From the NCBI RefSeq assembly GCF_009914755.1, contig NC_060936.1: DNA of 64,000 bases; one strand, written 5' to 3'. This DNA is from the human T2T-CHM13v2.0 reference genome, Homo sapiens. The notes beneath the pieces were generated by a model. That model saw only the letters and a list, made by a program, of their open reading frames with translations. It made no database searches and was not told the origin of the DNA. Position numbers and translations under genes: made by a program. Positions 52,418 through 56,224 of this stretch are shown here, piece by piece (within the stretch, counting starts at the first letter, position 1; each line of letters starts with the position of its first letter).

Positions 52418-55400
52418 CTCGCCAAGCACCTGGTAAGTGGCAGGTGTGGAGTAGATGTTCATTACCCTCCCCTCCCTCAGCTCTTGTGAGGAGACCAGCT
52501 CTTGGCTTTGCTGGGGGCTTCCTCTTGGAAATGTTCCTTGACACTCCTCACCCTTCCCACCCACACTCAATCAAGCTTTCTTCTTTTTTCTTTGTGTGTG
52601 CCTTTATCATACCATCTATGATATGTGATTGGTTTCTACATTTCTCTCCAACTAGACTGTAAACCTTCAGAGATTGGGAAGGGTTTTCACCTTCAGGGAT
52701 GAAAAATAGCATACTGATTAAAGATGCAGCTTGAAGCCAAACAACTTGTTCCATCGGTGTCAGCTGAGGTCTTGAGCAATTTACTTAACTGCTCTGTGCC
52801 TCGTTTCCTCATTTGAGGAGTGGGTCTGACATAATTGGGTGAGGATTAAATGAGATAGCTCTGATAAGTTCTTGAGGCAGTGCCTGCCACATAGCACTCC
52901 ATAAATGTTTGCTATTACAAGGATTGTCTTTGTAGCCTCTGCAGTGCCTGCTCTGGGGACTGGTGCCCCAAAGGAGCTAGTCTGTGGGATGACTGAACAA
53001 AGTGACCAAATAGAGAGCATGGATTATTACCTAGATGGGTAAGTATGTTGCAGATAATATTATTATTTTAGATGACTCTTTGAAAAATAAAATTTCAGAA
53101 GTTTTACATAAAAACATGCTTATTATAAAAAATTCAACTAATATAGAATTATATCAAGTAGAAAGAAAAACACCTTATTTCATCGCCAGCTTTTCATCTT
53201 TTCATGTGTTAAGTTTGGTGTATAACCTTCCAACCTTTATTATTTAACACATTTACTGTTTTCTCTTTGTGGTTCAGGCATTGGCTCTCATGCCCATAGA
53301 CTGAAAAACAAACTCTACTACCCATTTGCCAAAAATGTCAGAGACTAAGAATTTGAATTAATCAGACATTGATACATTAATTCTAAGTTGTTAGAAACTT
53401 ATTACTAACAACTTGTTTTTAAAAAATAATTGTTTTATACCTGAATATATCTTTCACTTCCTTCAAGATGATTTGTGTGCAGAGTAGACACTGGCCTTGG
53501 AGTGTTTGGGGATAATGGGAAGAGGTGCTTTGTTCAAAAATTCTCTCCCACACTCTGTCACGTGCTTGGTATTTTCTTGTTAGAGCTGCATTTCTTTGAG
53601 TTCGGATATTACCAAAAAGCCCCTGCAAATTTGCAGGTGAGCACAGTTTTTAGACAAAGCAGCTTAAGGGAAGGGAAAGCCCTGAGAATGAACTTAGAAG
53701 CTTTGTCCCTGTCAGGGTTTGACTTTTAGCTCCTTCTGTTTAAGAATCAGAATCTCAGCCCTGACTCAGGGGCTTTAACTCTTCTGGTTCCTATGCCTTG
53801 ATTTTGTCATGCTCTGGTTCTTCAGTTAAAGTTCCTCTCTTCAGACTCATTTTATATTTTGGAGAAACAGTGGGAGGAGCTCTTTGGATGAGCTGAGGCT
53901 TTAGCCATCCTTTGATAATAAATTTTTATTTCTAAGGCGCTAGGCATAGACCTAGAGGCATTTTACTGTGGTAGGTTTTTATCTCTTTTAAAATAAATAG
54001 AAAGGGACATATGAATTTTTATCAAATCATGGATCTAAAAACAAAGCCCATGGTAACAGAATGTTGCTGCATATTTCCTAATAATGCTTTATTACTAACA
54101 TTTTCTTATTATCCTAAAAACTAGTTACTTCTCTTCCAATTTTATGGTAATATAAAGTTATTGGTTGAAACATTATTATAGCTGTTTTATATTTGAAAAT
54201 TTATTTTGGGACTGAAGTCATATCTTCAGGGAAAACATGATTGTATATTCATAGATGTTATGATTTCTTAACTGAGTCTTTTAACTTTTATAATATTTTA
54301 ATACTTTTATTTGTCTAAATGTTCAAATAATCAATATCCCAAGGTTTAACAGTGCTTACAGTGTAATTGCATTTAGGACAATAAATTTTATATTGACAGT
54401 TCAGGGATCCCTATTTAGTTGAACATAACGAATTATGAAACCCCATTGGTTGAAATCTGGTTAGATGCTGCTGTTAATGATTTTCTTTTTCCTCTGTTAT
54501 TAGTATTTTATGTTGTAGTTAGTAGCTTCTAAACTTCACCCCTATGAGCACTCCTATCCTTTCAAATGATTATAAAGTGTTACCCCATTTGATAAATTGT
54601 GGTAAAATACATGAAACAAAAAATTTGTCATCGTGACTATTTTTAAGTACACAGTTCAGTATTTTTAAATGCATTCATAGTGTTGTGCAATCATCACCAT
54701 CATTCATCTCCATAACATGTTTCATCTTGTAAAATTGAAACTCTGTATCCATTAAACAATAATTCCCCATATTCCCTTTTCCCCAGCTGCTGGCACCCGC
54801 TATTCTACTGTCTGACTCTATAATTTTGAACTGCTCTAAATACCTCATATAAGTGGAATCATACAGTACTCGTCTGCTAGAGACTGGCTTATTTCACTTC
54901 ACATAATGTTCTCAAGATTCATCTATATTGTAGCCGACATCAGAATTTCCTTCCCTTTTAAGGTGAAATATATTTCATTGTACAGATATACCACATTTAG
55001 CTTATCCATTCATCCATTGATGGACCATGGGTTGCTTTCATGGTTTAGCTCAAAAATGCTGCTACCAACATGGGTATACAAATATCCTTTGAGGCCCTGC
55101 TTTCAGCTTTTTTTGGCTACAGAAATAGAATTCCTGGATCATAAGTTAATCCAATTTTTAAATTTTTGAGGAACTGTCATACTGTTTTTCACAGCGGCTG
55201 TAACATTTTACATTTTCACCAACAGTACACAAGGGTCCCAATTTCTCCACACCCTCTCCAACACTTCTGTTCTGTTCTGTTCTTTTGGCAGTAGCCCTCT
55301 TAATGGGTGTGAGGTGATATCTCATTGTTTTGATTTGCATTTCCCCAGTGATTAGTAATGTTGAACATCTTTTCATGTGCTTATTGGCTATTTGTGTATT

Positions 55401-55438
55401 TTCTTTAAAGAAATGTCTGTTCAAATCTTTTGCCCATT

Positions 55439-55737
55439 AAAACTTTTTTTTTTCAATATGGTGGGCAGTTTAGTATGGCCCAACTCATAGTTGGAGGGAG
55501 GCAGGGACAAACCCAGTGTGCTTCTGCCAGCTCTGAGGCCACCACAGGACTCATAGAGAGTAGGCTCATAAATAGACAGGAACCAGAGATCGCACTGGCC
55601 TGCCAGCCACTGCTTCCAATTCCTGTTTGTAGAAAAAAAAGACTGCCACCTTTTGGTCCACTGGCTTTTTAAGGCCAATGGGGATGAGCAGATGGCAACT
55701 CCCAGGCATCCCGCAAAGAAGGTGAGTCACCTTAAGA
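55439..55737 (-). pseudogene. Retrocopy of U12 snRNA 3' end (55685-55736) plus about 230 nt 3' extension and poly(A)
   Basis: Minus strand cttaaggtgactcaccttctttgcgggatgcctgggagttgccatctgctca matches about 45/52 nt of the recalled U12 3' end; T10 tail at 55444-55453; 12-bp TSD cttttgcccatt at 55427-55438 and 55738-55749. Confidence 0.8.
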
Positions 55738-56089
55738 CTTTTGCCCATTTTGAATCAGGTTGTCTTCTTGTTGTTGAGTTTTAGAAGTTCTCTATGTATG
55801 CTGCACATTAATCCCTTATCAGATATGATATTTTCTTTCATTTTGTGGGTTGTGTTTTTACTTTGTTGATAGTATCTTTTGATGTACAAAATGTAAACAT
55901 TGTTTAGGAAGTACAATTTGTCTATATTTTCTTTTGTTGTCTGTGCCTTTGATGTCAAATCTGAGAAATGACTGTCAAATCCAATGTTGTGAAGCTTTTG
56001 CCCTGTGTTTTCTTCTAAGGGTTTTATTGTTTTAAGTCTTATGTTTAGGCTTTTGATCCATTAAAACATTTTAAAAATTGTTTCATTTT

Positions 56090-56224
56090 TGTTTTTAAAC
56101 TTATCATAGAGATGAAGGTCTTGCTATATTACCCAGGCTGTTCTCAAATTCTTGGCCTCAAGCGATCCTCTGCCTTGGCCTCCCAAAGTGCTGGGATTAC
56201 AGGCATGAGCCACTGTGCCTGGCC
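56090..56224 (-). mobile_element. Alu left monomer (FLAM-like)
   Basis: Single antisense left arm. Confidence 0.8.

What the first reader, a model, noticed from the sequence alone, without database searches (positions are those of the whole stretch)
55427..55749. Fossil of an unprocessed, polyadenylated U12 snRNA read-through transcript
Seen: a 299-bp insert in an old L1, bounded by a perfect 12-bp TSD with a poly(A) tail, so it was inserted by L1 machinery. On the minus strand it begins with 52 nt matching about 45/52 nt of the U12 minor-spliceosome snRNA 3' end as I recall it. It does not stop at the mature end. Nine nt later comes gccttaaaaagccag (55675-55661), at the position of, and loosely resembling, the snRNA 3' box. 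About 205 nt of non-repeat sequence follow, with ACTAAA (55474-55469) 15 nt before the A tail. Known: Pol II snRNAs are normally cut by Integrator upstream of the 3' box and are not polyadenylated; failed processing gives extended, polyadenylated forms. Inference: this copy records a germline U12 precursor that escaped Integrator and used a cryptic poly(A) site. It would preserve the ancestral 3' flank of RNU12, or of a lost second U12 gene. The alternative is a U12/mRNA template-switch chimera.
Basis: partly seen in the sequence, partly recalled or inferred. Interest (0 to 1): 0.8.

Follow-up and report, generated by a model that had tools for sequence, protein, structure and literature searches.

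The report
Retrocopy of unprocessed, read-through U12 snRNA
A 299-bp insert in an old L1 element is a retrotransposed copy of a U12 snRNA transcript that ran about 210 nt past its normal 3' end, a small molecular fossil of failed snRNA 3'-end processing.

Summary
A 299-bp insert (55439-55737, minus strand) lies between perfect 12-bp target-site duplications inside L1 ORF2. It starts with U12 nt 98-150 (45 of 53 identical to RNU12). It runs on for 231 nt and ends in A10.

The 231-nt extension aligns colinearly with the present-day downstream flank of RNU12 on chr22, from +1 to about +210. The anchored alignment score was reached by 0 of 500 shuffles, 0 of 590 window decoys and 0 of 258 chr22 decoys. 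Mismatches are transition-rich (41 of 73, against 0.33 in decoys). MAFFT finds the same alignment independently.

The template was therefore an RNA running from U12 through the 3' box into its own flank, not a U12/mRNA chimera.

Three points remain open:
- The transcription start is unknown, because the copy is 5'-truncated.
- Canonical polyadenylation is only weakly supported. ACTAAA is a weak signal, and present-day RNU12 reads TCTAAG at that site.
- The source could be RNU12 or a lost paralog. The flank is only about 64% identical.

The chrX U12 pseudogene also carries about 28 nt of flank, including the 3' box, fused to an Alu.

This is a new variant of known retrocopy classes, of moderate interest.

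The parts
55738..55749 (-). 5' copy of the 12-bp target-site duplication (aatgggcaaaag on the minus strand)
   Evidence: 12 of 12 identical to 55427-55438
55685..55737 (-). 5'-truncated U12 snRNA segment, nt 98-150 (most of 3' stem-loop III, up to the mature 3' end)
   Evidence: 45 of 53 identical to RNU12. Rfam U12 truncated match to model 97-151, 18.2 bits, E 0.046; one of 3 places the genome search returned for RNU12 DNA.
55661..55675 (-). Decayed homolog of the RNU12 3' box (gccttaaaaagccag against gcctaaaaagtagac in RNU12)
   Evidence: aligned to RNU12 +12..+25. That this word is the 3' box of RNU12 is read against a consensus recalled from memory.
55633..55640 (-). T8 run, aligned to the T-rich block of the RNU12 flank (gtgttttttgtttct). 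It is the best-kept block of the proximal flank.
55454..55684 (-). 231-nt 3' extension, colinear with RNU12 downstream flank +1 to about +210
   Evidence: anchored score 7.5 against shuffles of -19.9 +/- 5.6 (0 of 500 reach it); 0 of 590 and 0 of 258 genomic decoys reach it; 129 matches, 41 transitions, 32 transversions, 37 gap columns. MAFFT gives the same alignment.
55469..55474 (-). ACTAAA, a possible weak poly(A) signal 15 nt before the A run
   Evidence: Weak: one search gives a 15.6% chance background, and present-day RNU12 reads TCTAAG here.
55444..55453 (-). A10 tail. It starts where RNU12 continues CGTTGGG, so it is not templated by the present-day flank.
55439..55443 (-). GTTTT, 5 unexplained bases between the A tail and the 3' TSD
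55427..55438 (-). 3' copy of the target-site duplication
55758..56060 (-). Host L1 ORF2 remnant upstream of the insert (ORF2p residues 963-1065)
   Evidence: E 5e-10 to human L1 ORF2p chains
55161..55436 (-). Host L1 ORF2 remnant downstream of the insert (ORF2p residues 1072-1140)
   Evidence: E 3.9e-16

Best explanation
This is an L1-mediated, 5'-truncated retrocopy of a 3'-extended U12 snRNA transcript.

Proposed course of events:
1. In a germline or early-embryo cell, transcription of a U12 gene was not cut upstream of the 3' box. The gene was RNU12 or a close paralog.
2. The RNA ran on through the 3' box and the T-rich block to about +210 and acquired an A tail there.
3. L1 ORF2p used this tailed RNA in trans. 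Target-primed reverse transcription began at a nick inside an older L1 ORF2.
4. The cDNA stopped or was joined at U12 nt 98, and a 12-bp target-site duplication formed.

Shown: the retrocopy hallmarks, the U12 identity of the first 53 nt, and the homology of the following 231 nt to the RNU12 flank.

Inferred: that the transcript began at the U12 promoter, that Integrator cleavage failed, and how the A tail was added. The tail could come from cleavage and polyadenylation at a weak ACUAAA site, or from surveillance-type adenylation of a terminated read-through RNA.
For: Retrocopy hallmarks:
- Perfect 12-bp TSD, A10 tail and a 299-bp insert.
- The host L1 ORF2 is contiguous across the insert, residues 963-1065 and 1072-1140.

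U12 identity:
- 45 of 53 identical to RNU12 nt 98-150.
- The Rfam truncated match ends at the mature 3' end.
- It is one of only 3 places the genome search returned for RNU12 DNA.

Flank homology:
- blastn extends from U12 into the flank, 75 of 103, E 4e-15. A second colinear HSP of 29 of 43 ends at the A tail.
- The left-anchored global alignment of the 231-nt extension to RNU12 +1..+260 scores 7.5. Shuffles give -19.9 +/- 5.6, and 0 of 500 reach the observed score.
- 0 of 590 real decoys from the window reach it (maximum -0.5), and 0 of 258 from the chr22 locus (maximum -1.5).
- The proximal 57 nt alone are reached by 1 of 1000 shuffles and by 0-1 of 400 decoys.
- The distal 174 nt, anchored where the proximal part ends, are reached by 2-9 of 400 decoys under three gap settings.
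- Transitions are 41 of 73 mismatches (0.56), against 0.33 in decoy alignments.
- The RNU12 flank has 10 CpG and the retrocopy has 1. Three of these CpGs align to TG or CA.
- MAFFT recovers the same alignment.

Other support:
- The extension has no other genomic place and no repeat-like hits, best E 2.2 in about 70 kb.
[quoted passage not shown] 3'-extended snRNAs are exosome substrates (PMC12667742).
Against: - Flank identity is only 129 of 202 aligned columns (64%), with 37 gap columns.
- The middle of the extension (nt 58-145) is not significant on its own: 50-127 of 400 decoys reach its score.
- Unanchored local alignment of extension against flank is not significant: 55 of 500 shuffles reach it.
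- The strong result for the last 86 nt (0 of 400 decoys) used start points taken from the earlier alignment, so it is post hoc.
- The flank is more diverged than the U12 part (8 of 53) and the perfect TSD predict under equal rates. The fitted branch ratio is 3.4, LRT p 0.03, but p 0.31 without the TSD term.
- Present-day RNU12 has none of the 12 listed poly(A) hexamers in its first 426 nt of flank.
- ACTAAA is weak evidence, with a 15.6% chance background.
- The copy is 5'-truncated, so the transcription start is unknown.
- No other mammalian genome could be consulted.
Confidence: 0.75

Rival explanations
1. The structure is the same, but the template came from a second U12 gene or variant, now lost from the human genome. 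Its 3' box was weak, so it habitually produced extended transcripts. The similarity to the RNU12 flank would then reflect older paralogy. (This is a sub-case of the read-through model, differing only in the source gene.)
For: The flank is about 36% mismatched, while the U12 part is 15% mismatched and the TSD is perfect. The fitted RNU12-flank branch is 3.4 times the retrocopy branch. In the copy the 3' box word reads AAAAAGCCAG, against AAAAAGTAGA in both RNU12 and the chrX copy. Variant U1 genes are reported to be poorly cleaved and 3'-extended (PMC12667742, passages).
Against: The rate excess is weak, p 0.03, and p 0.31 without the TSD. It is equally explained by the very high mutation rate reported for snRNA genes (PMC13484765, passages). 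The genome search found no other U12 gene: 3 places in all and 2 Rfam matches of E 0.001 or better. The 3' box differences may have arisen after insertion.
Confidence: 0.2
2. The template was not a U12-promoter transcript. It was a longer Pol II transcript that started upstream and merely ran through the U12 gene and its flank, such as read-through from a neighbouring gene or a lncRNA. It ended at about +210.
For: The copy is truncated at U12 nt 98, so nothing in it records the start site. An mRNA-type transcript would more naturally be polyadenylated.
Against: No evidence for such a transcript was found. The chrX copy starts at or within 3 nt of U12 nt 1, since ATG is shared with the TSD, and it too carries post-3'-box flank. 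That shows U12-start transcripts can reach past the 3' box and be retrotransposed. The A tail lies within the few hundred nt where snRNA read-through is described (PMC7044329, passages).
Confidence: 0.12
3. It is a template-switch chimera. Reverse transcription began on an unrelated polyadenylated RNA and jumped onto a short 3'-extended U12 precursor. Only the first 50-60 nt after U12 would then be RNU12 flank.
For: snRNA/L1 and snRNA/Alu chimeras are well known (PMC4476161, passages). The chrX U12 copy looks like exactly such a chimera with an Alu. The middle of the extension has no independent support.
Against: The distal part, anchored only by the end of the proximal alignment, still beats all but 2-9 of 400 decoys. 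The best local match of the whole extension to the flank is the last 42 nt, in colinear order and spacing. MAFFT agrees. No other source locus was found in the genome.
Confidence: 0.07
4. It is a chance resemblance or a DNA-level duplication, not an RNA-derived U12 copy.
For: The Rfam score is far below gathering: 18.2 against 53 bits, and E 4.1 in a 2.2-kb search.
Against: The genome-wide DNA search gives E 3e-9 and identity is 45 of 53. The TSD, the A tail and the precise interruption of L1 ORF2 are retrotransposition marks that a DNA duplication would not produce.
Confidence: 0.01

Closest known systems
Polyadenylated snRNA processed pseudogenes (the 'Poly(A)' class of Doucet et al. 2015, PMC4476161)
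   Same: An snRNA-derived sequence with an A tract and TSD, mobilised in trans by L1. An aberrant, adenylated snRNA is proposed as the template (passages).
   Different: In that class the A tract follows the mature or truncated snRNA end directly. Here 231 nt of the gene's own downstream flank lie between the U12 end and the A tail, and the snRNA is 5'-truncated. Their table lists 15 BLAST hits for U12, of which 4 were analysed and 3 characterised (2 'alone', 1 3'-truncated). It has no read-through class. Their 90% identity filter would probably drop this copy.
snRNA/L1 and snRNA/Alu template-switch chimeras (U6/L1 type)
   Same: An snRNA segment at the 5' side, other sequence with a poly(A) tail at the 3' side, and one TSD around the whole.
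   Different: The 3' part here is homologous to the snRNA gene's own flank, so no switch is needed. The chrX U12 copy (L002) does fit this class.
Retrocopies of other small-RNA precursors: pre-tRNA retropseudogenes, snoRNA retrogenes carrying host-intron flanks, miRNA host-transcript retrocopies
   Same: The retrocopy records an unprocessed precursor rather than the mature RNA, and can reveal how the parent was transcribed. Sources: PMC7692494 (abstract) and the pre-tRNA mention in PMC4476161. snoRNA retrogenes with flanks are recalled from memory; only the search listing for PMC1802619 was seen.
   Different: The parent here is a Pol II snRNA gene whose 3' end is normally made by Integrator at a 3' box. 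The copy therefore records failure of that specific step.
Read-through, polyadenylated snRNA transcripts seen after Integrator, NELF or DSIF depletion
   Same: An RNA running from the snRNA body past the 3' box to a downstream A-tailed end (PMC4349240, passages; PMC7044329, passages).
   Different: Those are experimental RNA species in cultured cells. This is a genomic fossil of such an RNA made in an unperturbed germline. Whether RNU12 today yields a 3' end at +210 is unknown.

Membership tests
L1-mediated processed retrocopy | Target-site duplication flanking the insert | tested here: met
   12 of 12 identical at 55427-55438 and 55738-55749. It is the only direct repeat of 10 nt or more in 55380-55800.
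L1-mediated processed retrocopy | 3' A tail not templated by the parent locus | tested here: met
   A10 at 55444-55453. RNU12 reads CGTTGGG at the aligned place. The 5 nt GTTTT between the tail and the TSD are atypical.
L1-mediated processed retrocopy | Homology to a transcribed parent locus, without its promoter | tested here: met
   U12 nt 98-150 plus flank +1..+210. The copy starts inside U12.
L1-mediated processed retrocopy | L1 endonuclease-type target (TT/AAAA-like; consensus recalled from memory) | tested here: inconclusive
   The 5' junction reads gattca|aaatgggcaaaag. An A-rich start is present, but the 12-bp TSD begins AATG and the GTTTT filler obscures the nick site.
U12 snRNA gene (Rfam RF00007) | Score at or above the gathering threshold (53 bits) over the full model | tested here: not met
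   18.2 bits over model 97-151 only; 15.7 bits in context. RNU12 scores 158.5 bits and the chrX copy 122.4 bits.
snRNA template-switch chimera | 3' partner derived from an unrelated RNA (L1, Alu or mRNA 3' end) | tested here: not met
   The 3' part aligns to RNU12's own flank: 0 of 500 shuffles and 0 of 848 decoys reach its score. No other genomic source was found.
Polyadenylated snRNA pseudogene (A tract at the snRNA end) | A tract directly after the mature or truncated snRNA sequence | tested here: not met
   231 nt separate the U12 3' end (55685) from the A run (55453).
Cleavage/polyadenylation at a cryptic site | Poly(A) signal hexamer 10-30 nt upstream of the tail | tested here: inconclusive
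   ACTAAA lies 15 nt upstream, but 15.6% of random window positions have one of the 12 listed hexamers there. The homologous RNU12 word is TCTAAG. The hexamer list is recalled from memory.
Integrator-escaped snRNA read-through transcript | Transcript starts at the snRNA cap site and is uncut at the 3' box | not testable with these tools
   The uncut 3' box region is present in the copy. The start site is lost through 5' truncation at nt 98.

The most novel reading that the evidence does not exclude
Two independent fossils show that Integrator-escaped U12 precursors were repeatedly available to L1 in the germline. One is this chr12 copy. The other is the chrX U12 + 3' box + Alu chimera.

The chr12 copy acts as a frozen snapshot of the ancestral RNU12 flank. 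It indicates that the transcribed 3' flank of RNU12 has evolved about three times faster than a neutral retrocopy. That would be a long-term evolutionary trace of the extreme mutability now seen at snRNA genes.

Alternatively, the excess divergence marks a lost U12 variant gene with a defective 3' box.
Probability: 0.3. Interest if true: 0.55.

Novelty: new variant of a known kind. Interest (0 to 1): 0.4.

Why it matters
snRNA 3'-end formation by Integrator is normally studied by depleting factors in cell lines. A retrocopy that carries the uncut 3' box and about 210 nt of flank is direct evidence that such read-through, A-tailed U12 RNAs arose naturally in the germline. It also shows they lived long enough to be reverse-transcribed.

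The copy adds a class (snRNA + own flank + A tail) that the published snRNA-pseudogene classification I read does not contain.

It also gives an independent old snapshot of the RNU12 flank. With other mammalian genomes, that snapshot could be used to polarise changes and measure how fast the flank of a hypermutable snRNA gene evolves.

On its own it is a single non-functional fossil.

Tried and rejected
- Unanchored local alignment of extension against flank: not significant (55 of 500 shuffles reach it). It was replaced by left-anchored alignment, which uses the known shared start point.
- Genome search with the extension: only the window itself was found. No parent mRNA was found, but the search would probably miss matches near 65-75% identity. 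It did not find the RNU12 flank either.
- Search for further U12 copies that might bridge the alignment: only 3 places in all. The Rfam genome search scored 43 of 262,473 first-look candidates and gave 2 matches of E 0.001 or better.
- Repeat check: sensitive blastn of the extension and of the RNU12 flank against about 70 kb (window plus loci, with self regions masked). For the extension, nothing was below E 2.2. For the flank, the best hits were the known chrX flank (E 0.048) and one 63-nt hit in the window (66.7% identity, E 0.13). No repeat library (Dfam/RepeatMasker) was available, so an ancient shared repeat is not formally excluded.
- Rate test of a 'lost paralog or fast flank': suggestive only.
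- Literature: searches listed no paper describing retrocopies of snRNA transcripts that include the 3' box and downstream flank. I read only passages of PMC4476161, PMC12667742, PMC7044329, PMC4349240, PMC7968993 and PMC13484765, and the abstract of PMC7692494. Subscription journals and supplements, such as Doucet's table S1, were not seen and may list such copies.
- Dating by orthologous empty sites and comparison with other mammals' RNU12 flanks: not possible with the collections held.

Full report
**What is there**

Read on the minus strand, an L1 ORF2 remnant is interrupted after ...caaaatgggcaaaag by a 299-bp insert at 55737-55439. The L1 sequence resumes with a second aatgggcaaaag. The two 12-mers, at 55738-55749 and 55427-55438, are identical. 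They are the only direct repeat of 10 nt or more in 55380-55800.

Translations of the flanks match human L1 ORF2p residues 963-1065 (E 5e-10) and 1072-1140 (E 3.9e-16). The host element is therefore contiguous across the insert, in the same orientation.

The insert has four parts:
- 53 nt of U12 (55737-55685)
- 231 nt of extension (55684-55454)
- an A10 run (55453-55444)

**Is it U12?**

The human genome holding the window was searchable. Rfam U12 found the RNU12 gene on contig 22 (158.5 bits) and one copy on contig 23, the X chromosome (122.4 bits). Searches with RNU12 DNA returned three places in all: those two and this site, which matched over 49 nt at 90%, E 1.2e-8 and 3e-9.

Ungapped, 55737-55685 matches RNU12 nt 98-150 at 45 of 53. 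Six of the eight differences are transitions by my reading of that alignment.

The covariance model gives a 5'-truncated match to positions 97-151 that ends exactly at 55685. It scores only 18.2 bits (E 0.046 on 99 nt) and 15.7 bits (E 4.1) in a 2.2-kb search. The sequence is therefore a U12 fragment and not a U12 gene.

**The decisive question: where does the extension come from?**

RNU12's own downstream sequence looks similar by eye:
- RNU12: ...gcccg|accttattcacgcctaaaaagtagactgac...ggtggtcgtgttttttgtttct
- Copy: ...gctca|tccccattggccttaaaaagccagtggac...ggtggcagtcttttttttct

Results in favour of homology:
- blastn carried the U12 match 50 nt into the flank (75 of 103, E 4e-15). It gave a second, colinear HSP of 29 of 43 that ends exactly at the A tail, though E 0.21 on its own.
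- Both sequences share a known start, the mature 3' end, so I used left-anchored global alignment. The 231-nt extension against RNU12 +1..+260 scores 7.5. Dinucleotide shuffles give -19.9 +/- 5.6, and 0 of 500 reach the observed score.
- None of 590 real 260-mers from the window (maximum -0.5) and none of 258 from the chr22 locus (maximum -1.5) reach it.
- The first 60 nt alone are reached by 1 of 1000 shuffles. The first 57 nt are reached by 0-1 of 400 decoys.
- The distal 174 nt, anchored only where the proximal alignment ends, are reached by 2-9 of 400 decoys under three gap settings.
- Among mismatches, 41 of 73 are transitions (0.56), against 0.33 in decoy alignments.
- The RNU12 flank has 10 CpG and the copy has 1. 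Three of these CpGs align to TG or CA.
- MAFFT, run independently, gives the same colinear alignment. The A tail begins where RNU12 continues CGTTGGG.

Results against:
- A free local alignment of extension against flank is not significant (55 of 500 shuffles reach it).
- The middle of the extension (nt 58-145) has no independent support (50-127 of 400 decoys reach it).
- My strong result for the last 86 nt (0 of 400) used start points taken from the earlier alignment, so it is post hoc.
- Identity is only 129 of 202 aligned columns, with 37 gap columns.

The extension has no other place in the genome search. It has no repeat-like hits in about 70 kb of test sequence, best E 2.2. No repeat library was available.

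**Reading**

The template RNA ran without a break from inside U12, through the region homologous to the 3' box, through the T-rich block, and on to about +210 of a U12 gene's flank. There it carried an A tail. The TSD, the tail and the 5' truncation show that L1 copied it into the genome.

The U12/mRNA chimera alternative is disfavoured. That RNU12's gcctaaaaagtagac is its 3' box is read against a consensus I recall from memory. PMC7044329 states only that the box lies about 20 nt past the mature end.

**What is not shown**

- *Start site.* The copy begins at nt 98. A longer transcript that merely crossed the U12 gene cannot be excluded.
- *How the tail was added.* ACTAAA lies 15 nt before the tail. 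However, 15.6% of random positions in this window have one of the 12 listed hexamers in that upstream range. The homologous RNU12 word is TCTAAG, and RNU12 has none of the listed hexamers in its first 426 nt of flank. Adenylation of a terminated read-through RNA by the nuclear surveillance machinery is an equally good route. Doucet et al. propose such templates for polyadenylated snRNA pseudogenes.
- *Which gene.* I fitted the U12 part (8 of 53), the perfect TSD and the flank (73 of 202 mismatches). The retrocopy branch comes out at 0.11 and the RNU12-flank branch at 0.38, a ratio of 3.4. The likelihood-ratio p is 0.03, but 0.31 if the TSD is left out.
  - Equal rates need about 0.22 substitutions per site on each branch. 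A perfect 12-bp TSD then has a probability of about 0.01.
  - One explanation is that the RNU12 flank evolves fast. This fits the roughly 50-fold excess of de novo variants per nt reported for snRNA genes (0.0119 against 0.00024 in random intergenic regions, PMC13484765, passages).
  - The other is that the source was a paralog now lost.

**Comparison with what is known**

Doucet et al. 2015 sort human snRNA copies into four classes: alone, repeat-associated, poly(A) and 3'-truncated. For U12 they list 15 BLAST hits, of which 4 were analysed and 3 characterised. None of their classes includes parental downstream flank.

A 2026 preprint tabulates one U12 gene and one pseudogene. This fragment is not in the gene table supplied with the finding.

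Read-through with cryptic polyadenylation after Integrator loss is established for snRNAs in cells. 3'-extended snRNAs are NEXT-exosome substrates. Retrocopies that record precursors are known for pre-tRNAs and miRNA host transcripts.

My seven relevant literature searches listed no description of a retrocopy of a read-through snRNA that includes its 3' box. Subscription papers and supplements were not seen.

**A second fossil**

The chrX copy (L002) is a full-length U12 followed by about 28 nt of flank, including an intact 3' box word (acacctaaaaagtagactg). This is joined directly to a full Alu whose A tail abuts the outer TSD, AAATTCCCAGTACCATG / AATTTCCCAGTACCATG. A further Alu with its own 16-nt TSD was inserted later.

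It looks like an Alu-to-U12 template-switch chimera whose U12 partner was also uncut at the 3' box.

**Verdict**

This is a non-functional fossil and a new variant of known retrocopy classes, of moderate interest.

Noticed in passing
L002:1487-2310 (G000 C23, about 46,542,378-46,543,201): The chrX U12 pseudogene is a full-length U12 plus about 28 nt of RNU12-type flank with an intact 3' box word. It is fused to a full Alu, and the whole is bounded by a 17-nt TSD in which 16 of 17 positions agree (AAATTCCCAGTACCATG / AATTTCCCAGTACCATG). A second Alu with its own 16-nt TSD sits inside. It appears to be a template-switch chimera built on a 3'-box-uncut U12 precursor.
   Followed up: partly
window 55439-55443: Five bases, GTTTT on the minus strand, lie between the A10 tail and the 3' TSD copy. 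This is atypical for an L1-mediated 3' junction and I have no tested explanation. Possibilities are tail decay, filler, or terminal uridylation of the template.
   Followed up: no
window 55633-55640 and L001:1695-1707: The best-kept block of the flank beyond the 3' box is a T-rich run, T8 in the copy and gttttttgtttct in RNU12. U-rich sequence in extended snRNAs is reported to be bound by RBM7/NEXT. I saw only a reference title for this.
   Followed up: no
window 56108-56223: An Alu-like fragment (Metazoa_SRP match, 39.1 bits, below gathering) interrupts the same L1 ORF2 remnant upstream of the insert.
   Followed up: no
window 55734 and L002:1606: Both U12 retrocopies carry T at U12 nt 101, where RNU12 has C. 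This may be parallel C>T change or an older allele. With one shared site it is not significant.
   Followed up: no
window 55750-55770: The host L1 ORF2 frame has a stop and a 1-nt frame shift just upstream of the insertion point (KKTT*FKMGK against ORF2p [12 protein letters not shown], where the ORF2p residues 1065-1071 are recalled from memory, not shown by any search). This is consistent with an old, decayed L1.
   Followed up: partly
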